Under the pieces are notes generated by a model. It searched no databases. It saw nothing but the letters and a program-made list of their open reading frames with translations, and was not told the origin of the DNA. A program made the position numbers and the translations under genes. From IMG/VR virus record IMGVR_UViG_3300029181_000038, positions 1-8,016 of that record: a DNA stretch of 8,016 nt. One strand, written 5' to 3'. The stretch is from a virus. Taxonomy: Duplodnaviria; Heunggongvirae; Uroviricota; Caudoviricetes. Below are positions 1 to 8,016 of the stretch, one piece after another (the first letter of the stretch is position 1; every line of letters begins with the position of its first letter).

Positions 1-1093
1 TTGAGTCGATACCGATGTATGTCACGTTGTACTGTTCGGTCAGTTTTTTGATGGCGTCAGCCTGGGCGCGGAAGTCCATCCCGCGCCACTGGTGACGTTC
101 AAGAATGCGAAACTTACCGCCTGGCACGGCTGGCGGTGCCACCACCACGCATCCGGCGCTGTCGCCGTTCTGCGTACCTTTTGCCGGGTCATAACCGATC
201 CACACTTCGCGCCAGCCAAACGGGCGCAGGGCCAGTGCATGAAAGTCGCTCCAGACTTCCCAACTGTCCACCATGCACGCCTGCAGCTCGCTGAGCGGGA
301 ACACGGACGCGAGATCGTCCACAAACTCGCACATCAGCAGGTTCTGGTATTCGTCCGGGCTGTACTCCATGCGCAACTGATCGAGGTCGAAAAGGTTACA
401 TCCGCCGCGCACTGCATCTTCCACGGTGACTATCTGGCGGTATTGCCCGTCTGCGCACAGCAGGCCGGGGGCCAGATTGCTGTGGGACAGGTCGATGTCC
501 ACCTTATCGGCTTTGTTGCGCCCACGGTTGAACAGCGCACCAGACCAGAACGGATAAGCACTGTGTGTCAGGCTGGATGGCGTGGAAAAATAGGTTTGTC
601 GCCATTTTTTGTGAATAGCCATACCGGAAGCCACTTTGCGCAGCTCCTGGAATTTCGGTATCCAGAAATATTCATCCAGATACAGGTTGCCGTGATAACT
701 CTGGGCAGTGCGGGCATTGGTGCCGAGGAAGTAAAGCGTGGCCCCGTTAGGAAGCACCATCGGATCGCCTTTCAGCTCCACCTCGACTTCTTTGGCGAAG
801 TCGATGATGTATTGCTTAAAGACGTGAGCCTGTGCCTTACTGGCAGAAAGGAAAATCTGGTTACGTCCGGTAAGCAGGGCGTCAATCAGGGCTTCACGGG
901 CAAAGTAAAAGGTCGCGCCGATCTGGCGTGACTTCAGCAGATTACGGATGCGGTTGGTTTTTCCAGCTTCCCACCAGTGGCGCTGGTAGTTGAACATGGA
1001 GGAATGGAAGATTTCTTCCAGCTTCTCAATCTGTTCATCGGTGAAAACATTCTTTTCCGGCTGACGGCGCGGCCCTTTGTTGCGGTTCCTGCC
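1..1093 (-). pseudogene. P: Phage terminase large (ATPase) subunit, P2 gpP-like; 3' end runs off the left window edge; 5' end appears truncated (no in-frame start between the stop at 1094-1096 and the first ATG at 997-995)
   Basis: Minus-strand frame (codons at 2-4, 5-7, ...) is open across the whole region and translates to ...QPEKNVFTDEQIEKLEEIFHSSMFNYQRHWWEAGKTNRIRNLLKSRQIGATFYFAREALIDALLTGRNQIFLSASKAQAHVFKQYIIDFAKEVEVELKGDPMVLPNGATLYFLGTNARTAQSYHGNLYLDEYFWIP..., which reads as a terminase ATPase domain. It is not in the ORF track because it has no stop inside the window. The listed + ORF 92-931 is its antisense. Whether the gene is truly truncated or simply starts at Met997 is uncertain. 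Confidence 0.6.
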
Positions 1094-1565
1094 TTATCTC
1101 GCCTGGGCGTTCTCTGTGGATCGCTGGGACGAGAGCTGGACAGAAAGCGTCAAGCGCCAGGTGGTGAAGGATGCTTTTTATATTCATCAGCATAAAGGGA
1201 CCACCAGTGCCGTGCGGCGGGTGGTGGAGCCGTTCGGCTTTCTGATCCGCATTATTGAGTGGTGGCAGACCGGAGAGGCACCGGGCACGTTTCGCCTGGA
1301 TATCGGCGTGCAGGACCAGGGCATTACTGAAGATACCTATCTGGAACTTGAGCGACTGATAAGCGATGCCAAACCATGTAGCCGCCACATGATCGGCATG
1401 TCCATCAATCTGCAGACCAGCGGCCCGCATTGGGTGGGAGCCGCCAGCTATCTTGGCGAAGAAATCACGATCTATCCGTATATCAACGAAACGATTATTT
1501 CCGGTGGCACCGCGCATGAAGGCGGGGCGGTCCATGTTATTGACACAATGAGAGTGAATCCATGA
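1077..1565 (+). CDS. I: Baseplate assembly protein, P2 gpI-like, probably N-terminally truncated (frame opens at 1065; only a TTG start at 1077)
   Basis: Translation MLRFLPYLAWAFSVDRWDESWTESVKRQVVKDAFYIHQHKGTTSAVRRVVEPFGFLIRIIEWWQTGEAPGTFRLDIGV... matches the P2 tail protein I family as I remember it. Its stop overlaps the H start (ATGA at 1562-1565), the usual gene order upstream of tail fiber H. Confidence 0.65.
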   Translation: MLRFLPYLAWAFSVDRWDESWTESVKRQVVKDAFYIHQHKGTTSAVRRVVEPFGFLIRIIEWWQTGEAPGTFRLDIGVQDQGITEDTYLELERLISDAKPCSRHMIGMSINLQTSGPHWVGAASYLGEEITIYPYINETIISGGTAHEGGAVHVIDTMRVNP

Positions 1566-2983
1566 GCACAAAATTTTATACCCTGCTGACGGATATTGGC
1601 GCGGCGAAACTTGCCAGCGCCGCCGCGCTCGGTGTGCCGCTAAAAATTACCCATATGGCGGTGGGCGATGGCGGCGGAGCATTGCCGACGCCGGACGCAA
1701 AGCAGACGGCACTGGTAAATGAGAAACGCCGGGCTGCGCTGAATATGCTCTATATCGACCCGCAGAACAGCAGCCAGATTATTGCTGAACAGGTGATCCC
1801 TGAAAACGAGGGCGGTTGGTGGATACGTGAAGTGGGCCTGTTTGATGAGTCAGGGGCATTGATTGCCGTGGGGAACTGCCCGGAAAGCTATAAACCGCAA
1901 CTGGCTGAAGGCAGCGGGCGTACCCAGACCGTGCGCATGGTGCTGATTACCAGCAGCACGGACAATATCACCCTGAAAATCGACCCTGCCGTAGTGCTGG
2001 CAACCCGCAAGTATGTGGATGACAAGGTACTGGAGCTGAAGGTGTACGTGGATGATCAGATGGCAAAACATCTTGCCGCACCGGACCCGCATTCACAGTA
2101 TGCACAGAAAGAAAGTCCGACGTTTACCGGGACACCAAAAGCGCCAACGCCAGCGGCAGGGAATAACACCACGCAGGTTGCGACCACCGCGTTTGTTCAG
2201 GCGGCACTGACGGCCCTTATTAATGGTGCTCCAGCCACGCTGGACACGCTAAAAGAAATAGCCGCAGCCATTAACAATGATCCGAATTTCAGTACCACCA
2301 TTAACAATGCGCTGGCACTGAAAGCGCCGTTGTCGAGTCCGGCACTCACCGGAACGCCAACAGCACCTACTGCGGCACAGTCGGTCAACAATACACAGAT
2401 TGCCACTACGGCTTTTGTGAAATCGGCGATTGCGGCAATGGTAGGTTCTGCACCTGCGGCACTGGATACACTGAACGAACTGGCGGCGGCGCTGGGGAAT
2501 GACCCAAACTTTGCCACGACAATGCTTAATGCACTGGCAGGTAAACAACCGCTGGACAATACGCTGACTAATTTGAGTGGAAAGGATGTAGCTGGTCTTC
2601 TCACATACCTTGGTTTGGGAGAAGCGGCAAAACGGGATGTGGGGACAGGGGAAAATCAGATACCGGATATCTCCAACGTTCCATTTACAAAAAACAATCC
2701 TCTTAATTTTGAGTTACCAGGAGGATTAATTCTGAAAGCCGGGTATGGAAAGCTGACAACGCAGTCCAGTATCTGGATTAATTTCCCTGCAGCATTCCCT
2801 AATGACTGTATTGCCGGAGGAGCTTTAAGTGCGGAAGAGAACACAAATGACTATGTATTTGCTCAAACTACATCACGCAAAGCAGGAGGATTAACTCTGG
2901 CGTTTTATCGTGGGGGCATTAGTCAGCCACCAACAGCCAATTCCAGAGAACTTTCTTTCTCGTGGTTTGCGATAGGATATTAG
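1562..2983 (+). CDS. H: Tail fiber protein, P2 gpH-like; constant N-terminal part (to ~2610) fused to variable C-terminal cassette Hv (2611-2983) in the current orientation
   Basis: 473-aa ORF; N-terminus MSTKFYTLLTDIGAAKLASAAALGVPLKITHMAVGDGGG... is the conserved P2-family tail-fiber N-terminal domain; internal tandem fibre repeats; translationally coupled to upstream I (ATGA) and downstream tfa. Confidence 0.92.
   Translation: MSTKFYTLLTDIGAAKLASAAALGVPLKITHMAVGDGGGALPTPDAKQTALVNEKRRAALNMLYIDPQNSSQIIAEQVIPENEGGWWIREVGLFDESGALIAVGNCPESYKPQLAEGSGRTQTVRMVLITSSTDNITLKIDPAVVLATRKYVDDKVLELKVYVDDQMAKHLAAPDPHSQYAQKESPTFTGTPKAPTPAAGNNTTQVATTAFVQAALTALINGAPATLDTLKEIAAAINNDPNFSTTINNALALKAPLSSPALTGTPTAPTAAQSVNNTQIATTAFVKSAIAAMVGSAPAALDTLNELAAALGNDPNFATTMLNALAGKQPLDNTLTNLSGKDVAGLLTYLGLGEAAKRDVGTGENQIPDISNVPFTKNNPLNFELPGGLILKAGYGKLTTQSSIWINFPAAFPNDCIAGGALSAEENTNDYVFAQTTSRKAGGLTLAFYRGGISQPPTANSRELSFSWFAIGY
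2598..2623. repeat. Left crossover site of invertible segment (gix/cix/hix-like 12-2-12 site) located inside gene H
   Basis: ttctcacatacc-tt-ggtttgggagaa. Its reverse complement ttctcccaaaccaaggtatgtgagaa is identical to the right site at 4437-4462 over the first 14 nt; the exact inverted repeat is 15 nt (2610-2624 vs 4436-4450). Half-sites fit the TTCTC..AAACC pattern of Gin-family recombination sites. Confidence 0.8.
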
Positions 2984-2984
2984 A

Positions 2985-3425
2985 ATGAGAATTTTTTTCA
3001 GTGCATCAACATTGTGGTTTTATGATGAAACTCGCAAAGAAGAATATCACAACGGTATTGGATGGCCAGATGATGCTATCGAAATATCAGATGATGAATG
3101 GAATAAATATACGCAAATTCCTCCTGATGGTTTTATATTAGGTGCCACCTCTCAGGGAAGACCTGCATGGATATTAATATCTCCGCCAGATAAAAAAATG
3201 GTTATGGATATTGCTGAAACTAAAAAACAGCAGTTAATTAGCCAGGCCAATGAATACATGAACAGTAAACAATGGCCCGGTAAAGCCGCTATTGGTCGTC
3301 TGAAAGGCGAGGAACTGGCGCAATATAATTTGTGGCTGGATTACCTGGACGCACTGGAGCTGGTTGATACCTCCAGTGCTCCAGATATTGAATGGCCTAC
3401 GTCTCCGGCAGTTCAGGCCAGATGA
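2985..3425 (+). CDS. G: Tail fiber assembly chaperone (Tfa, P2 gpG / Mu U-like), partner of the currently expressed Hv cassette
   Basis: 146-aa ORF starting 1 nt after the H stop (tag-a-atg) with AGGA 7 nt upstream; C-terminal motif LDYLDALELVDTSSAPDIEWPTSP is typical of Tfa-family chaperones. Confidence 0.85.
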   Translation: MRIFFSASTLWFYDETRKEEYHNGIGWPDDAIEISDDEWNKYTQIPPDGFILGATSQGRPAWILISPPDKKMVMDIAETKKQQLISQANEYMNSKQWPGKAAIGRLKGEELAQYNLWLDYLDALELVDTSSAPDIEWPTSPAVQAR

Positions 3426-3999
3426 CATCCGGCGCTGTGCTGGTATCTGTTGCCGTCACCGCGTCAATGTAATCCAGCACAGCGTTAAGCCGGGTTGTTT
3501 CTGCCTGCGTCAGTTTACGTCCGGCCTGCAATTTCAACTGAATCAGACTGACGGAAGCCATTGCTGCATCAATTAGTGGCTGGCGCAGTGCTTCTGCCGC
3601 GTCTACTGCGGCATTATGCTGTGCCTCAGTATCTGTCACCCATTTCTCACCATCCCATTCATCGTATGGCGTTAACGGAGCGATAGTGGTCGTATTTTCA
3701 TGATAATCACCCGGACCTGTGATTTCTTTCGATTCTCCTGTTTCGGTGCTATAAACGATTTCACCGCGATGGTCTGGCACATATTCCCATGAGTTTAAAT
3801 CCATCGAACGGCAGATAGCATAACCCGCCTTATGTGTGCCAGGGGCATCTAAACAGGAATATGCAGGGATACCGACACCAATGGCAAGATATTCATTTGA
3901 AGTGGAAATATATTCCCGAGTTTCACCATCATAGTTATAGACGGTAATATTCCCCGCCTTCGTGGCAATAAGCTCGCTATTTAATACGGCGTTATCCAT
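3397..3999 (-). CDS. Alternative tail fiber assembly chaperone (tfa'), partner of the silent Hv' cassette
   Basis: 200-aa minus-strand ORF; C-terminal motif LDYIDAVTATDTSTAPDVIWPELPE parallels that of tfa; its ATG overlaps the Hv' stop (TAATG on the minus strand at 4001-3997); 3' end overlaps tfa convergently. Confidence 0.85.
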   Translation of the reverse strand: MDNAVLNSELIATKAGNITVYNYDGETREYISTSNEYLAIGVGIPAYSCLDAPGTHKAGYAICRSMDLNSWEYVPDHRGEIVYSTETGESKEITGPGDYHENTTTIAPLTPYDEWDGEKWVTDTEAQHNAAVDAAEALRQPLIDAAMASVSLIQLKLQAGRKLTQAETTRLNAVLDYIDAVTATDTSTAPDVIWPELPET

Positions 4000-4449
4000 T
4001 ATGCAGCCCTCACGATATAGTTAAATGCAATATTTCGTGGACGGGTTTCACTCCCGCCGGGGAGCTGAAAAGCGTTGATAATCCCACCGCTTGCCTGACT
4101 TATTCCATCCGTGTACAACCCGCCACCGGCACTGTCGCTGAGTGCAAATGTTTTTGATGGTGAACTGTTTGAAGCTGGCCCCCAGTATTTTAATGCGAGC
4201 TTTCTGACTTCATCACTCTGAATACTCAATAAAGCACGCCCTGTATCAATGCCGCGCCCATCATCCCAGCCACGAATAAACTCACCACGTAAATCAGGCA
4301 ATTTATTTGTCGGATAAGCCTTTGCCAGTTCCGGGTATTCTTCAGCAGAAAAAGCTGCACCGTTGCATTTCAGCCAGCCTGTCGGCGGAGTGGCTGAAGG
4401 CCATGGAACAGGGACACCAACAGGTAATGCCGAACCTTCTCCCAAACCA
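3999..4449 (-). CDS. Silent alternative tail-fiber C-terminal cassette (Hv'); no start or promoter of its own; would be fused in frame to the H constant region after inversion
   Basis: Minus-strand frame reads ...VGLGEGSALPVGVPVPWPSATPPTGWLKCNGAAFSAEEYPELAKAYPTNKLPDLRGEFIRGWDDGRGIDTGRALLSIQSDEV...NIAFNYIVRAA, which looks like a side-tail-fibre receptor-binding C-terminus. The GLGE codons sit on the crossover repeat in the same codon phase as LGLGE of H (2609-2623). The ORF-track start MMPVARYL at 4490 lies on or beyond the crossover site and is probably not used. Confidence 0.8.
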
Positions 4450-4462
4450 ACGTTTATGAAAA
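4437..4462. repeat. Right crossover site of invertible segment (gix/cix/hix-like), ~55 bp upstream of the invertase gene
   Basis: ttctcccaaacc-aa-cgtttatgaaaa; inverted copy of the site at 2598-2623; imperfectly palindromic around a central AA dinucleotide. Confidence 0.8.
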
Positions 4463-4517
4463 TGCAGAGATAACGGGCAACTGGCATCATCTCCGGTTTT
4501 TATTCAGGGGGATGCTC

Positions 4518-5084
4518 ATGCTTATTGGCTATGTACGCGTGTCAACAAATGACCAGAACACGGAATTGCAGCGTAACGCGCTGGAGTGCGCAGGATGCGA
4601 GCGGATTTTTGAGGATAAAATCAGCGGCACGAAGTCCGACCGACCGGGACTGAAAAAACTGCTCAGAACACTATCGGCAGGAGACACGCTGGTTGTCTGG
4701 AAGCTGGACAGGTTGGGGCGCAGTATGCGGCATCTTGTTACGCTGATAGAAGAGTTGCGCCAGCGTGGCGTGAATTTCCGAAGCCTGACTGACAGTATTG
4801 ATACCAGTACCCCAATGGGCCGTTTCTTTTTTCATGTCATGGGTGCCCTGGCTGAAATGGAACGCGAACTGATAGTTGAACGTACCAGGGCAGGGCTGGC
4901 TGCAGCTCGTGTTAAAGGCAGAGTAGGTGGACGCCGTCCTAAGTTGACCAGCGAACAGTGGGCACAGATTGGGCGTTTACTCGAGGCCGGAGAATCAAGA
5001 CAGCGTATTGCACTGATTTTTGATGTAGGCGTTTCTACCATTTATCGAAAATTTCCGGCAAATAAGAGCAATGAATCTCCCTGA
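4518..5084 (+). CDS. Site-specific DNA invertase, serine recombinase of the Gin/Pin/Cin/Hin family
   Basis: MLIGYVRVSTNDQNTELQRNALECAGCERIFEDKISGTKSDRPGLKKLLRTLSAGDTLVVWKLDRLGRSMRHLV...GRFFFHVMGALAEMERELIVERT...GGRRPKLT... with a C-terminal HTH (VGVSTIYRKF); catalytic Ser in the YVRVSTNDQ motif. Start chosen at ATG 4518 (AGGGGG at 4505-4510, 7-nt spacing) rather than the in-frame ATG at 4512, which sits too close to the SD. Confidence 0.93.
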   Translation: MLIGYVRVSTNDQNTELQRNALECAGCERIFEDKISGTKSDRPGLKKLLRTLSAGDTLVVWKLDRLGRSMRHLVTLIEELRQRGVNFRSLTDSIDTSTPMGRFFFHVMGALAEMERELIVERTRAGLAAARVKGRVGGRRPKLTSEQWAQIGRLLEAGESRQRIALIFDVGVSTIYRKFPANKSNESP

Positions 5085-5132
5085 CTCAGCTTTATTTTGA
5101 TTATCCCTGAAAGCAGACAAATACCGTCATTT

Positions 5133-5150
5133 TGTGTGAATAACGGTACA
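5133..5150 (+). promoter_or_regulatory. P2-type late promoter activator element (TGT-N12-ACA, Ogr/Delta-family binding site) upstream of FI
   Basis: tgt-gtgaataacggt-aca in the 142-bp FI upstream region, centred ~85 bp before the FI ATG; consistent with a -55-centred Ogr site and a ~30-nt leader. No strong -35 is visible, as expected for activator-dependent late promoters. Exact -10 not assigned. Confidence 0.5.
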
Positions 5151-5226
5151 ACTGCGCTTAGCTGTTTGTCAGGCACAATCACTTCAACATAGGGCGAAGC
5201 CTAATCCAATCAGGAGGTTCGCCACT

Positions 5227-6399
5227 ATGGCTCAGGATTACCACCACGGGGTGCGCGTTGTTGAAGTCAACGAAGGCACTCGATCCATTACTACGGTGAG
5301 CACCGCCATCGTGGGCATGGTCTGCACGGGCGATGATGCCGATGCAAAAATGTTCCCTCTTAATAAACCCGTGCTGATCACTGATGTGCTTACTGCCAGC
5401 GGTAAAGCGGGTGAGTCCGGTACGCTGGCCCGTTCGCTGGATGCCATCGCTGACCAGGCAAAACCCGTGACCGTTGTTGTGCGTGTGCCGCAGGGTGAAA
5501 CGGAAGACGAAACCACGACCAATATCATCGGCGCAGTGACTGCTGAAGGTAAAAAAACAGGTATGAAAGCCCTGTTATCTGCCCAGTCACAGCTCGGCGT
5601 TAAACCGCGCATTCTCGGCGTGCCAGGCCACGACACCAAGGCGGTAGCTACTGAGTTGCTGAGCATGGCGCAAAGCCTGCGTGGATTTGCTTACCTGTCA
5701 GCATATGGCTGCAAGACGGTACAGGAGGCGATCACTTACCGTGAAAACTTTAGCCAGCGCGAAGGGATGCTGATCTGGCCTGACTTTACTGGCTGGGACA
5801 CTGTGCTGAATGCCGAAGCAACGGCATATGCCACCGCCCGTGCGCTTGGTCTGCGCGCCAAAATTGACGAGCAAACCGGATGGCACAAAAGCCTGTCCAA
5901 CGTGGGCGTGAACGGTGTCACCGGAATTTCTGCAGATGTGTTCTGGGATCTGCAGGACCCGGCAACCGATGCAGGTCTGCTGAACCAGAACGACGTCACC
6001 ACGCTTGTGCGCAAGGATGGTTTTCGCTTCTGGGGTTCCCGCTGTCTGAGCGATGATCCGCTCTTTGCCTTCGAAAACTACACCCGCACGGCGCAGGTGC
6101 TGATGGACACGATGGCAGAAGCGCACATGTGGGCGGTGGACAAACCGCTGAACCAGTCGCTGGCCCGCGACATTATCGAAGGTATCCGCGCCAAAATGCG
6201 CAGCCTGGTCAGTCAGGGCTATCTCATTGGTGGTGATTGCTGGCTGGACGAGTCGGTGAACGATAAAGACACGCTGAAAGCCGGGAAGCTCACCATCGAC
6301 TACGACTACACGCCAGTGCCGCCACTTGAAAATCTGATGCTGCGCCAGCGCATCACCGATCAGTATCTGGTGAATTTTGCCAGCCAGGTCAGCGCGTAA
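5227..6399 (+). CDS. FI: Contractile tail sheath protein, P2 gpFI-like
   Basis: 390-aa ORF; [40 protein letters not shown]...[19 protein letters not shown]...[24 protein letters not shown] closely matches the P2 sheath protein as I remember it; RBS CAGGAGG at 5211-5217. Confidence 0.93.
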
Positions 6400-6408
6400 G
6401 GGGACAAC

Positions 6409-6924
6409 ATGGCTTTACCACGCAAATTAAAACATCTGAACCTGTTTAACGACGGGAACAACTGGCAGGGGATCGTAGAGTCGCTGACGCTGCCGAAATT
6501 CACCCGCAAATATGAGAAGTATCGCGGCGGCGGAATGCCAGGTGCAGTGGATGTGGATCTGGGGCTTGATGACAGTGCGCTGGACACAGAATTTTCCATT
6601 GGTGGTACTGAACTGCTGCTGTTTAAGCAGATGGGCAAAGCCACGGTGGATGGCATCCAGTTGCGCTTTACCGGCTCTATCCAGCGTGACGATACCGGGG
6701 AAGTGCAGGCCGTGGAGCTTGTGGTGCGTGGACGTCACAAAGAAGTTGACTCTGGTGAGTGGAAGACGGGCGAAAGCAACACCACCAAAGTGACCAGTAC
6801 CAACAGCTACGCGAAGCTGACCATCAATGGTGAGGTGCTCTATGAAGTGGACCTTATCAACATGGTGGAAATTGTGGACGGTGTGGACCTGATGGAAGCG
6901 CACCGCAACGCACTCGGCCTCTGA
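6409..6924 (+). CDS. FII: Tail tube protein, P2 gpFII-like
   Basis: 171-aa ORF 9 nt after FI with RBS AAGGGGA; MALPRKLKHLNLFNDGNNWQGIVESLTLPKFTRKYEKYRGGGMPGAVDVDLGLDD... fits the P2 tail tube family; conserved FI-FII order. Confidence 0.9.
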   Translation: MALPRKLKHLNLFNDGNNWQGIVESLTLPKFTRKYEKYRGGGMPGAVDVDLGLDDSALDTEFSIGGTELLLFKQMGKATVDGIQLRFTGSIQRDDTGEVQAVELVVRGRHKEVDSGEWKTGESNTTKVTSTNSYAKLTINGEVLYEVDLINMVEIVDGVDLMEAHRNALGL

Positions 6925-6935
6925 TGTATCTGAAC

Positions 6936-6953
6936 GGCGCGGAATGCCGCGCC
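6936..6953 (+). other. GC-rich hairpin (7-bp stem GGCGCGG/CCGCGCC, 4-nt loop) between FII and E; no following U-tract
   Basis: ggcgcgg-aatg-ccgcgcc seen directly, 12 nt after the FII stop. Not a canonical intrinsic terminator; could be an mRNA stability or processing element that affects the FII:E expression ratio. Confidence 0.3.
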
Positions 6954-6978
6954 AGAACCCAATTTACAGGACAGCAAA

Positions 6979-7281
6979 ATGAGCGATAAGCAGACTGAAA
7001 AGACCATTCAACTGGATACCCCCATCAAGCGCGGTAAAACAGAAATCACCGAAATTGTGCTGCGTAAACCGCAGTCTGGTGCGCTGCGCGGCACACGCCT
7101 GCAGGCCATTATGGATATGGATGTGAACGCGATGATGACCGTGATCCCCCGCATCTCCAGTCCGGCACTGACTGCACAGGAAATCGCAGAGATGGACCCG
7201 GCAGATCTCACAGCCATGTCGGTTGAGGTTGTCACTTTTTTGTTGAAGAAGTCGGTGCTTGCCGGTTTACCGACAGCCTGA
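6979..7281 (+). CDS. E: Tail assembly chaperone, P2 gpE-like (zero-frame product)
   Basis: 100-aa ORF MSDKQTEKTIQLDTPIKRGKTEITEIVLRKPQSG...; position between the tube gene and the tape-measure gene, as for P2 E and lambda G. Confidence 0.85.
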   Translation: MSDKQTEKTIQLDTPIKRGKTEITEIVLRKPQSGALRGTRLQAIMDMDVNAMMTVIPRISSPALTAQEIAEMDPADLTAMSVEVVTFLLKKSVLAGLPTA

Positions 7282-7415
7282 CGGTTGACGATCTGGTGGC
7301 AGATATCGCCACCATTTTTCACTGGCCGCCATCCGTTACTGACGTTATGCCGCTGACCGAAGTGCTGGAATGGCGGTATAAAGCGATTCAGAGATGCGGG
7401 GCCAACGATGAGTGA
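6979..7415 (+). CDS. E+E': Frameshift fusion product E+E' (tail assembly chaperone long form), made by -1 slippage at 7236-7242
   Basis: -1 frame after the slip site encodes VEEVGACRFTDSLTVDDLVADIATIFHWPPSVTDVMPLTEVLEWRYKAIQRCGANDE with no stop until 7413-7415, which overlaps the T start (ATG 7408). This matches the known P2 E/E' arrangement. Confidence 0.7.
7236..7242 (+). promoter_or_regulatory. Programmed -1 ribosomal frameshift slippery heptamer T-TTT-TTG within E
   Basis: Zero-frame codons TTT (7237-7239) and TTG (7240-7242); the -1 frame is open from 7242 to a TGA at 7413-7415. Confidence 0.75.
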
Positions 7416-8016
7416 TAACAACCTGCGCCTGCAGGTCATTCTTAATGCGGTTGACAAACTCACCCGCCCATTCCGTGCTGCACAGGCCAGTTCGAAAGAG
7501 CTGGCTGGCGCAATCAGAAACTCCCGTGACGCATTAAAGCAACTCAATCAGGTGGGTAACAGCCTGGAAAAATTTCGCAAGCTGCAGGCTGATAACAAGA
7601 AGTTAGGCGACAGGCTGAACTATGCCAGACAGAAGGCTAATTTGCTTAGCTCTGAGCTGGAGGCGATGGAGCAACCATCACAAAGGCATCTTGTGGCTTT
7701 AGGTCGGCAAACGCTGGCAGTCCAACGCCTGGAAGAACAACAAAAATATTTGCAGAAGCAAACGGCGCTTGTGCGTGCTGAACTGTACCGGGCGGGAATT
7801 TCTGCGAAAGATGATGCGGGAGCAACTGCCCGTTTAGCCCGTGAAACATCACGTTATAACCAGGAACTTTCGAAACAGGAGGCGCGGCTGAAGCGACTGG
7901 GGGAAGCTCAGCGCAGGATGAATGCAGCGCGTGCCAGTTATGCCCGTTCGCTGGAGGTGCGTGATCGTATTGCAGGTGCCGGAGCCACCACCACGGCTGC
8001 AGGGCTGGCAATGGGC
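7408..8016 (+). CDS. T: Tail tape measure protein, P2 gpT-like, N-terminal 203 codons (continues beyond the window)
   Basis: Open frame from ATG 7408 to the window end: MSDNNLRLQVILNAVDKLTRPFRAAQASSKELAGAIRNSRDALKQLNQVGNSLEKFRKLQADNKKLGDRLNYARQKANLLSSELEAMEQ..., a coiled-coil-rich N-terminus typical of tape-measure proteins. Missing from the ORF track because it has no stop in the window; the listed minus ORFs 7008-7547 and 7646-8011 are its antisense. Confidence 0.85.
   Translation, partial: MSDNNLRLQVILNAVDKLTRPFRAAQASSKELAGAIRNSRDALKQLNQVGNSLEKFRKLQADNKKLGDRLNYARQKANLLSSELEAMEQPSQRHLVALGRQTLAVQRLEEQQKYLQKQTALVRAELYRAGISAKDDAGATARLARETSRYNQELSKQEARLKRLGEAQRRMNAARASYARSLEVRDRIAGAGATTTAAGLAMG

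What the first reader, a model, noticed from the sequence alone, without database searches (positions are those of the whole stretch)
2641..3240. The expressed receptor-binding cassette (Hv + tfa) is compositionally foreign relative to the rest of the prophage
Hand counts give about 40% G+C over 2641-3240 (242 of 600), against roughly 55-65% in two 60-nt lines of the H constant region (1561-1680). The silent Hv'/tfa' cassette is visibly more GC-rich than the expressed cassette in the one line I counted (3421-3480). This points to the two host-range modules having different evolutionary origins, with the AT-rich one acquired by horizontal exchange from a lower-GC phage.
Basis: seen in the sequence. 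Interest (0 to 1): 0.5.

Follow-up and report, generated by a model that had tools for sequence, protein, structure and literature searches.

The report
AT-rich swappable tail-fibre tip cassette
The low-GC stretch is real and is a swappable module (a phage tail-fibre tip plus the matching half of its assembly chaperone) inside a flip-flop host-range switch of a P2-like E. coli prophage; this is an ordinary example of the long-known mosaic evolution of phage tail fibres.

Summary
Observation confirmed. Window 2641-3240 is 40.0% G+C (240/600), the lowest stretch in the window. The backbone is 55% (GC3 0.29 against 0.62, p=2e-17).

The low-GC tract (about 2665-3233) coincides with a homology block: the gp53-like receptor-binding tip of fibre protein H plus the variable N-domain of its Tfa chaperone. 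The GC step falls inside the tfa gene, at the N/C domain junction.

The block lies in a 1.84-kb Gin-type invertible segment (26-bp sites at 2598-2623 and 4437-4462, invertase 4512-5084). E. coli 14EC007 carries the same prophage with the segment flipped exactly at the site cores.

Interpretation partly supported:
- The two cassettes do have different ancestry. Their tips have different folds (Gp53-like_C and Collar). Block A occurs in 5 of 5426 E. coli genomes and in no phage record at DNA level. Cassette B occurs in 3098 genomes and 77 phage records.
- The silent cassette is also AT-rich (GC3 0.39, p=5e-12), as are cassettes of four sister phages. "Expressed" is only a switch state.
- No lower-GC donor was found. 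Every relative recovered is less AT-rich than block A.

This is ordinary tail-fibre mosaicism. Low interest.

The parts
1..1087 (-). Internal fragment of the P2-type terminase ATPase gene (gpP), open on the minus strand and running off the left end. Context only; it marks an internal prophage deletion.
   Evidence: 100% DNA match to 'terminase ATPase subunit family protein' genes in E. coli genomes. Open minus-strand frame. Pfam Terminase_6N/6C on the same gene in contig L011.
1077..1565 (+). Truncated baseplate/tail gene I (P2 gpI), lacking about its first 37-39 codons. The homology with intact prophages starts at 1086.
   Evidence: Pfam Tail_P2_I matched from profile position 38. Identity to L001 and L002 begins at 1083-1086.
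1562..2983 (+). Tail fibre gene H as currently assembled (473 aa): constant part 1562-2597, crossover site, linker, then the gp53-like tip.
   Evidence: ORF. Pfam Phage_tail_fib at aa 1-150 and Gp53-like_C at aa 385-473. GC3 of the constant part is 0.57.
2598..2623 (.). Left 26-bp crossover site (12-2-12: TTCTCACATACC TT GGTTTGGGAGAA), lying inside the H reading frame.
   Evidence: Inverted repeat I1 with 4436-4462. Against the flipped copy in E. coli 14EC007 only the outer half-site differs (positions 2600, 2604, 2606, 2609), which places the exchange at the central TT, 2610-2611.
2624..2670 (+). Conserved linker just inside the segment (encodes ...EAAKRDVGTGENQIPD). Proposed 5' recombination handle shared by many phage lineages.
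   Evidence: The first 46 nt of query 2625-3240 match 35 phage records at 89-98% identity (phi80, mEp237, P2-like, SfV, Klebsiella phages), and nothing downstream matches. Homology to L002 ends at 2664.
2665..3233 (+). Block A, the low-GC module: receptor-binding tip of H (2665-2983) plus the N-terminal, fibre-specific domain of Tfa (2985-3233).
   Evidence: G+C 39.9%; tip GC3 0.33 and TfaN GC3 0.24. No similarity to the sister element L002 across exactly 2665-3233. 99.3% identical in a Mu-like backbone (L013), where the neighbouring sequence is 85-96% identical. The tip model (pLDDT 72.8) matches AP22 gp53 (4mtm) and the R2 pyocin fibre foot (6ct8, 6cl6).
2985..3425 (+). tfa, the tail fibre assembly chaperone of cassette A (146 aa).
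   Evidence: Pfam Caudo_TAP, E=5e-31. The exact protein is in public E. coli genomes, in a 44-member cluster.
3234..3425 (+). Conserved C-terminal domain of Tfa. Composition is intermediate (49.5% G+C, GC3 0.48). Proposed 3' recombination handle.
   Evidence: Homology to L002 resumes at 3234 (89%). GC3 of TfaN 0.24 against TfaC 0.48, p=0.005, within one ORF. Its best match in L005 (81%) is to the other tfa gene, not the one next to the tip homologue. Literature: the Tfa C-domain is conserved and the N-domain is variable and binds the fibre (PMC9608196).
3397..3999 (-). tfa', the chaperone of the alternative cassette B (200 aa). It converges on tfa with a 29-nt overlap.
   Evidence: ORF. Pfam Caudo_TAP. 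Its cluster has 1743 members. GC3 is 0.39 for the N part and 0.55 for the C part.
3999..4448 (-). Hv', the alternative fibre tip (Collar domain), promoterless and without a start codon of its own in this orientation.
   Evidence: Pfam Collar, E=1e-15. In 14EC007 it is fused in frame to the same H constant part as a 1500-nt ORF. GC3 0.40.
4437..4462 (.). Right 26-bp crossover site (TTCTCCCAAACC AA CGTTTATGAAAA), inverted relative to the left site.
   Evidence: The outer half-site (4451, 4454, 4456, 4460) stays with the invertase flank in the flipped copy.
4512..5084 (+). Gin-family serine DNA invertase (190 aa).
   Evidence: Pfam Resolvase plus HTH_7. phmmer E=2.5e-92 to phage Mu Gin (PDB 3UJ3, 4M6F), aligned end to end and including the YVRVSTNDQ catalytic-serine motif.

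Best explanation
The low-GC stretch is a discrete, horizontally exchanged host-range module.

Setting (shown). It lies inside a Gin/Cin/Pin-type invertible segment (about 1.84 kb between the site cores) of a P2-like E. coli prophage, and this copy of the prophage is internally deleted. The switch fuses the constant part of fibre gene H to one of two alternative tips, each followed by its own chaperone gene.

Block A (about 2665-3233). It comprises the gp53-like beta-sandwich receptor-binding tip and the N-terminal, fibre-binding domain of its Tfa chaperone. These two parts must match each other, and they travel together.

Boundaries. Block A is bounded by sequences conserved across many phages: the crossover site plus a 46-nt linker on the 5' side, and the Tfa C-domain on the 3' side. 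I infer that these act as handles for homologous recombination, letting tip/chaperone cassettes be swapped between co-resident phages and prophages.

What is shown: the mosaic boundaries, the co-inheritance of tip and TfaN, near-identical copies in unrelated backbones, the inversion at the site cores, and the distinct ancestry and distribution of A and B.

What is inferred: the recombination mechanism; that A reached the E. coli prophage pool recently from a lineage not yet sampled; and that its AT-richness reflects the composition of a cassette pool shared among phages rather than the P2 backbone.

AT-richness is a graded property of all variable host-range modules in this phage group. Block A is simply the most extreme case. 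It has nothing to do with being the expressed copy.
For: Composition:
- A 39.9%, B variable 47.7%, rest of switch 49.2%, backbone 55.1% G+C.
- GC3 is 0.29 (A), 0.39 (B) and 0.62 (backbone).
- The scan LLR of 22.6 exceeds all 200 shuffles.
- There is a within-gene step in tfa: N-domain GC3 0.24, C-domain 0.48, p=0.005.

Boundaries equal homology breakpoints:
- The sister element CP019275 aligns at 95.6% up to 2664, shows nothing over 2665-3233, and aligns at 89% from 3234.
- In the Mu-like prophage of E. coli Res13 (L013), 2665-3233 is 99.3% identical while 3234-4050 falls to 96, 92 and then 85%.

Co-inheritance of tip and TfaN. In L003, L005, L018 and L020-L022 a tip 50-69% identical to A is followed directly by a TfaN 52-56% identical, and an invertase lies within about 2 kb.

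The switch is real:
- The flanks are 100% and 99.97% identical to E. coli 14EC007 while the segment is inverted, and only the outer half-sites differ.
- The invertase matches Gin at E=2.5e-92.

Different ancestry.

AT-richness is general. In the window, L002, L014, L015 and L016, the intact H tips have GC3 0.31-0.40 (the 54-codon tip of the disrupted L016 fibre gene, 0.52, is the exception), TfaN 0.24-0.39 and TfaC 0.44-0.62, against FI/FII 0.64-0.66.

Chaperone modularity matches published structural work (PMC9608196).
Against: - No donor with matching composition was found. All relatives of A are less AT-rich (tip GC3 0.39-0.55), including the one in Xenorhabdus mauleonii, where the tip has the same composition as its own fibre gene.
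- The A against B difference at third positions is only marginal (p=0.03).
- Recombination at the handles is inferred from breakpoints, not observed.
- Cassette B is endemic and diverse in E. coli yet is still AT-rich. Low G+C alone therefore cannot date or prove an import.
- The tip model is only of moderate confidence (pLDDT 72.8 from a 6-sequence alignment).
Confidence: 0.75

Rival explanations
1. One reading: only the expressed cassette is foreign. It was recently captured from a phage of a lower-GC host, while the silent cassette is native to the P2-like backbone.
For: - A is the most AT-rich block.
- A is extremely rare and shows no sequence-diverged relatives in E. coli (5/5426 genomes, all >=99%) or in phage genomes.
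- Among 5.8 billion proteins there is an identity gap between 97% and 69%.
- GC3 of 0.24-0.33 would suit a genome of roughly 40% G+C (my estimate from general knowledge, not computed here).
Against: - The silent cassette also deviates strongly from the backbone (GC3 0.39, p=5e-12).
- Cassettes in sister phages do the same.
- No low-GC relative was found in genome, viral or metagenome searches.
- Expression state is reversible.
Confidence: 0.3
2. AT-richness is generated or maintained in place and is not inherited from a donor. Hypervariable host-range cassettes would be kept AT-rich by selection or mutation bias, for example weak codon selection on rarely or alternately expressed genes, or silencing by AT-binding nucleoid proteins.
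For: - AT shift is seen in every variable cassette examined, in both orientations and in five related phages.
- Relatives of A are at or below their own backbone G+C in most backbones.
- Endemic cassette B has not drifted to the backbone composition despite wide diversification within E. coli.
Against: - The composition step lies inside a single ORF (tfa), exactly at a homology breakpoint. Expression-level arguments cannot produce that.
- In Xenorhabdus the homologous tip is not AT-shifted.
- No mechanism was tested.
Confidence: 0.25
3. Artefact: a chance fluctuation, an amino-acid-composition effect, or a chimeric metagenome assembly.
For: The window comes from a metagenome contig (L011, 100% identity), and it does contain an unusual deletion junction at about 1086.
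Against: - The same block at >=99% identity, and the same switch, occur in complete E. coli chromosomes.
- The effect is largest at synonymous and 4-fold sites.
- The LLR exceeds all shuffles.
Confidence: 0.01

Closest known systems
Invertible host-range segments of phage Mu (G segment, Gin), P1 (C segment, Cin) and the e14 element (P segment, Pin)
   Same: - A serine invertase about 78% identical to Gin by my count from the printed alignment (E=2.5e-92).
- 26-bp inverted crossover sites with a 2-bp core, lying inside the fibre reading frame.
- A constant fibre N-part outside the segment and two alternative tips inside it, each with its own tfa gene; the two tfa genes converge.
- Segment size of about 1.84 kb, close to the 1797-bp e14 P segment (PMC12529663).
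   Different: - The backbone is P2-like, not Mu, P1 or e14.
- One of the two tips is a gp53-like domain rather than the Collar/Stf type.
- This copy of the prophage is deleted for head, lysis and baseplate genes.
Phage P2 H/G tail-fibre genes and the classic case for horizontal transfer of tail-fibre genes among unrelated phages (Haggard-Ljungquist, Halling and Calendar 1992; title seen in the reference list of PMC13100340; paper not held, content from my own knowledge)
   Same: - The same gene order (I, H, tfa/G, then FI, FII) and the same H N-terminal domain (Pfam Phage_tail_fib).
- Cassette B is 90% identical in DNA to a P2-type E. coli phage (KC618326) and is related to lambdoid Stf/Tfa and T-even gp37/gp38.
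- A mosaic C-terminal fibre part with a cognate chaperone.
   Different: - Canonical P2 has no invertase and no second cassette (my knowledge).
- Cassette A has no close relative in any sequenced phage.
Modular Tfa chaperones (phage Mu Tfa, PDB 5YVQ; Pam3 gp25)
   Same: The N-domain is variable and binds the fibre, and the C-domain is a conserved helical domain (PMC9608196). Here the N/C junction is both a composition step and a recombination breakpoint.
   Different: No structure or binding data exist for this Tfa. The domain boundary is inferred from homology and composition only.
gp53 tail fibre of Acinetobacter phage AP22 (PDB 4MTM) and the foot domain of the R2 pyocin fibre (PDB 6CT8, 6CL6)
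   Same: Pfam Gp53-like_C, E=2e-11. Foldseek E=1e-4 to 1e-3 with TM about 0.5. All are C-terminal receptor-binding beta-sandwich tips of contractile-tail fibres.
   Different: Only 19-24% sequence identity, and there is no sequence-level PDB hit. The receptor is unknown. The model is of moderate confidence.
PinQ/e14 StfE2 recombinase-activated phage inhibition (PMC12529663)
   Same: An invertible fibre-tip segment retained in a defective prophage of E. coli.
   Different: Nothing here shows an anti-phage role. This is a lead only.

Membership tests
Gin/Cin/Pin/Hin-type invertible host-range switch | Adjacent small serine recombinase of the Gin/Hin invertase family with a catalytic serine | tested here: met
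   Pfam Resolvase plus HTH_7. E=2.5e-92, aligned end to end with Gin (3UJ3/4M6F). The motif YVRVSTNDQ is present.
Gin/Cin/Pin/Hin-type invertible host-range switch | Two 26-bp crossover sites in inverted orientation with a matching 2-bp core | tested here: met
   Sites at 2598-2623 and 4437-4462, with 12-2-12 architecture and core TT/AA.
Gin/Cin/Pin/Hin-type invertible host-range switch | Both orientations occur in nature, with exchange at the site core | tested here: met
   The E. coli 14EC007 prophage has 100% and 99.97% identical flanks and an inverted segment. Only the outer half-sites differ. Both fusions give intact fibre ORFs.
Gin/Cin/Pin/Hin-type invertible host-range switch | Fis-dependent recombinational enhancer within the 5' part of the invertase gene | not tested
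   Not examined. The Fis consensus is too degenerate for a meaningful scan, and biochemical assay would be needed.
Caudo_TAP tail fibre assembly chaperones with modular N/C architecture | Pfam PF02413 match, variable N-domain, conserved C-domain | tested here: met
   E=5e-31 and 2.5e-29 for the two proteins. The TfaN of cassette A has no close relatives, while its TfaC is 81% identical to the C-domain of a non-cognate Tfa (the one not adjacent to the tip homologue) in L005.
Gp53-like_C receptor-binding tips | Pfam PF21882 above the gathering score, and a fold like AP22 gp53 | tested here: met
   44.5 bits against a cutoff of 24.9. Top Foldseek hit is 4MTM, E=1.2e-4, TM 0.52, with a model of pLDDT 72.8.
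Horizontally acquired compositional island | Synonymous-site composition deviates from the host element, with sharp boundaries | tested here: met
   GC3 0.29 against 0.62, p=2e-17. There is a step inside tfa. The maximum-likelihood segment is 2653-3273.
Horizontally acquired compositional island | Patchy distribution, and the same block in unrelated backbones | tested here: met
   5 of 5426 E. coli genomes. 99.3% identical in a Mu-like backbone as well as in the P2-like one.
Horizontally acquired compositional island | A donor lineage whose own composition matches the island | tested here: not met
   Relatives found in genome contigs, viral contigs and metagenome proteins all have tip GC3 of 0.39-0.55 and backbones of 46-63% G+C.

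The most novel reading that the evidence does not exclude
The AT-richness of tip/chaperone cassettes may be a maintained, functional property of a cassette pool shared among phages, not a relic of a particular donor. In this internally deleted prophage the still-invertible segment might be retained for a host-beneficial role such as receptor masking, as reported for PinQ/e14 StfE2. In that case cassette A would be a recently spread module conferring a new specificity, one that moves at >99% identity between P2-like and Mu-like prophage remnants.
Probability: 0.1. Interest if true: 0.5.

Novelty: new member of a known kind. Interest (0 to 1): 0.2.

Why it matters
This mostly serves as a clean worked example. 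The composition step, the homology breakpoints and the chaperone domain boundary all fall at the same coordinates. That defines the natural exchange unit (fibre tip plus Tfa N-domain) that phage engineers would need to transplant to retarget P2-like phages or tailocins.

It also gives a caution. Low G+C in a host-range cassette is generic in this phage group, so it cannot by itself be read as evidence of recent foreign origin or be linked to expression state. Cassette A is a rare, uncharacterised receptor-binding module, but no new principle is involved.

Tried and rejected
- Chance or amino-acid composition as the cause: rejected by the synonymous-site tests and the shuffles.
- Metagenome misassembly: rejected, because the same block and switch occur in complete E. 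coli chromosomes.
- Donor hunt. No relative more AT-rich than the window was found in: DNA search of 50,697 phage genomes; protein searches of 5.8 billion sequences; GTDB species genomes; IMG/VR. Xenorhabdus mauleonii (61% aa identity) looked promising as a lower-GC host, but its copy has GC3 0.49-0.50.
- Sequence search of the PDB with the tip: no hit at E<=1. NCBIfam has no model for H, tfa or tfa'.
- The classic P2 papers (PMC206541, PMC4836473) are not held. What I say about them rests on my own knowledge and on a citation seen.
- Errors of my own, corrected or set aside:
  - One search used an out-of-frame Hv translation; it was redone.
  - timed out; it was redone.
  - The 'Hv2tip' GC3 values printed for the window and for L002 are out of frame and were not used. 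Searches give the in-frame values.
  - Searches failed on the term-length rule.
- A coarse scan found a near-tied optimum at 2499-5210. This means the whole switch module, invertase included, is somewhat GC-poor (49%), with block A nested inside it as the extreme. I treat this as a two-level pattern, not as a contradiction.
Full report
**What the window is.** The window is identical to positions 6440-14455 of a 14.6-kb ENA metagenome contig (L011). It carries the tail region of a P2-like E. coli prophage:
- a truncated gene I (1077-1565)
- fibre gene H (1562-2983)
- tfa (2985-3425)
- tfa' (3397-3999, minus strand)
- a promoterless alternative fibre tip, Hv' (3999-4448, minus strand)
- a serine invertase (4512-5084)
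- the sheath, tube and gpE-type genes

The best phage matches are Peduoviridae of E. coli and Klebsiella at 95-96% identity. These matches exclude the middle of the window.

**Checking the observation.** The numbers hold:
- 2641-3240 is 240/600 = 40.0% G+C.
- The two H-constant lines are 51.7% and 66.7%.
- Line 3421-3480 is 56.7%.

This is the G+C minimum of the window. A maximum-likelihood scan places the low-GC segment at 2653-3273 (39.3% against 53.4% outside) with LLR 22.6. No shuffle came close: the maximum was 10.7 in 100 mononucleotide shuffles and 13.7 in 100 block shuffles.

The deficit is concentrated at synonymous positions:

| Region | GC3 | G+C at 4-fold sites |
|---|---|---|
| Fibre tip (A) | 0.33 | – |
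| Tfa N-part (A) | 0.24 | – |
| Cassette A combined | 0.29 | 0.29 |
| Backbone genes | 0.62 | 0.68 |

The combined A value differs from the backbone with Fisher p=2e-17.

**What the low-GC tract corresponds to.** Independent homology evidence puts boundaries at the same coordinates.
- Against a sister element (CP019275, L002), the window aligns at 95.6% up to 2664, shows no similarity over 2665-3233, and resumes at 89% from 3234.
- Against a Mu-like prophage in another E. coli (L013: YmfQ, gp46/gp47-type baseplate), 2665-3233 is 99.3% identical. The sequence to its right falls to 96%, 92% and then 85%.

Block A therefore consists of the C-terminal tip of H together with the first 83 codons of tfa.
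- The tip is a Pfam Gp53-like_C domain.
- A moderate-confidence model of the tip (pLDDT 72.8) matches AP22 gp53 and the R2 pyocin fibre foot.
- The composition step falls inside the tfa ORF: N-part GC3 0.24, C-part 0.48, p=0.005.

This fits published work that Tfa chaperones have a variable, fibre-binding N-domain and a conserved C-domain (PMC9608196).

Tip and TfaN also travel together. In six other loci, a tip 50-69% identical to A is followed directly by a TfaN 52-56% identical, and an invertase lies nearby. In L005 the window's TfaC instead best matches the other tfa gene (81%).

On the 5' side, a 46-nt linker just inside the crossover site is conserved at 89-98% in lambdoid, Mu-like and P2-like phages. 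I infer that this linker (with the crossover site) and the TfaC region serve as handles for homologous exchange of tip/TfaN cassettes. This step is inferred from breakpoints, not observed.

**The switch.**
- Sites at 2598-2623 and 4437-4462 are 26-bp inverted sites of 12-2-12 design.
- The invertase aligns end to end with Mu Gin (E=2.5e-92) and keeps the catalytic-serine motif.
- E. coli 14EC007 carries the same prophage: 0 mismatches over 1086-2624 and 1 mismatch over 4436-8016. Its segment is inverted.
- Eight of the nine mismatches in the segment alignment are the outer half-sites. These stayed with the flanks, which places strand exchange at the central dinucleotide.
- In that genome Hv' is the in-frame tip and the AT-rich tip is the silent one.

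"Expressed" is thus a reversible state, not a property of the cassette.

**Testing the interpretation.** The two cassettes do have different histories.

| Measure | Cassette A | Cassette B |
|---|---|---|
| Tip Pfam family | Gp53-like_C | Collar |
| Phage records matched by variable DNA | none beyond the 46-nt linker | 77 |
| Complete E. coli genomes, of 5426 | 5, all >=99% identical | 3098, at 60-100% identity, chromosomes and plasmids |
| Phage records matched by protein | 53, all below 60% identity; listed hits about 25-40% | 1318, including a P2-type phage at 91%, lambdoid Stf/Tfa and T-even gp37/gp38 |

In a 5.8-billion-protein collection, the A tip has only E. coli copies (96-98% identical), then a gap to 69%.

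But the silent cassette is also compositionally deviant:
- Its variable part is 47.7% G+C against 55.1% in the backbone (p=8e-5).
- Its GC3 is 0.39 (p=5e-12 against the backbone), and A against B is only p=0.03.

The pattern is general across four sister phages (CP019275, 500465-1, Cartapus, KP12):

| Module | GC3 range |
|---|---|
| Tips | 0.31-0.40 |
| TfaN | 0.31-0.39 |
| TfaC | 0.44-0.62 |
| Sheath and tube genes | 0.64-0.66 |

One exception is the disrupted fibre gene of KP12. AT-richness is therefore a general, graded feature of the variable host-range modules, and block A is the extreme.

**The donor.** I looked for a lower-GC source and did not find one. Relatives in metagenome contigs, IMG/VR and GTDB genomes sit in backbones of 46-63% G+C. 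Their tip GC3 is 0.39-0.55, always higher than the window's 0.33-0.34. In Xenorhabdus mauleonii the homologue has the same composition as its own fibre gene.

"Acquired from a lower-GC phage" remains plausible but unproven. A rival reading, that AT-richness is maintained in such cassettes, cannot be excluded. It does not, however, explain a step inside one ORF at a homology breakpoint.

**Comparison with what is known.** This is a member of the Gin/Cin/Pin class of invertible host-range segments, placed in a P2-like backbone. Sister phages are already annotated this way: Cartapus carries a "Mu phage Gin invertase homolog". It also shows the tail-fibre mosaicism described for P2 H/G in 1992 (citation seen; content from my own knowledge). 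All proteins are present, with automatic annotation, in public E. coli genomes.

The only new element is that cassette A is a rare and uncharacterised gp53-like tip/chaperone pair. It is shared at >99% identity between P2-like and Mu-like prophages.

**Verdict.**
- Observation: confirmed.
- Interpretation: partly supported. Different ancestry holds. "Only the expressed one is foreign" does not hold. The lower-GC donor is unproven.
- The feature is an ordinary, well-understood kind of phage mosaicism. Interest is low.

Noticed in passing
window 1-1087 (minus strand) joined to 1077-1565: An internal fragment of the P2-type terminase ATPase gene abuts gene I, which lacks about its first 37-39 codons. 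The scaffold, capsid, small terminase, head-completion, lysis and baseplate genes (P2 O to J, by the known P2 gene order) are missing, so this prophage copy is defective. The same junction is in contig L011, which is reported from 2 samples. E. coli 14EC007 has the intact I, J, W and V genes.
   Followed up: partly
L011 128-5036 (upstream of the window in the source contig): Next to the portal gene lie DinI, a DUF87 (HerA-like ATPase) plus SIR2_2 gene pair, and a PIN_12 protein. These look like anti-phage defence cargo at a P2 variable locus.
   Followed up: no
window 3397-3425: tfa and tfa' converge and overlap by 29 nt. The same 29-nt overlap is present in L001, L002, L003 and L005, although the cassettes differ. 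The flanking LDY(L/I)DA-coding stretches form an inverted repeat (3335-3352 and 3461-3478).
   Followed up: partly
window 2678: This is the only substitution inside the invertible segment relative to E. coli 14EC007 (G against T), and it also differs from L013. The window's tip protein reads ISNVPF where the public E. coli copy P0002 reads ISNFPF, i.e. Val against Phe at the start of the gp53-like tip.
   Followed up: no
window 2499-5226: The whole switch module, including the invertase (GC3 0.50) and the invertase-sheath intergenic region (5085-5226, 43.7% G+C), is GC-poorer than the structural backbone. A coarse scan gives a near-tied optimum at 2499-5210. This suggests the entire switch is itself an insertion into the P2-type tail operon, between the fibre genes and FI.
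   Followed up: partly
L005 3831-4019 against window 3234-3425: The window's Tfa C-domain is 81% identical to the C-domain of the non-cognate tfa in L005, but only 34% identical to the one next to the tip homologue. This indicates domain shuffling within tfa genes.
   Followed up: partly
L013 3824-3946 (E. coli Res13-Sevr-PER07-33): In this Mu-like prophage, which carries block A at 99.3% identity, the adjacent invertase is annotated as a truncated pseudogene. The segment there is probably locked in one orientation unless it is inverted in trans by another Pin-family enzyme.
   Followed up: no
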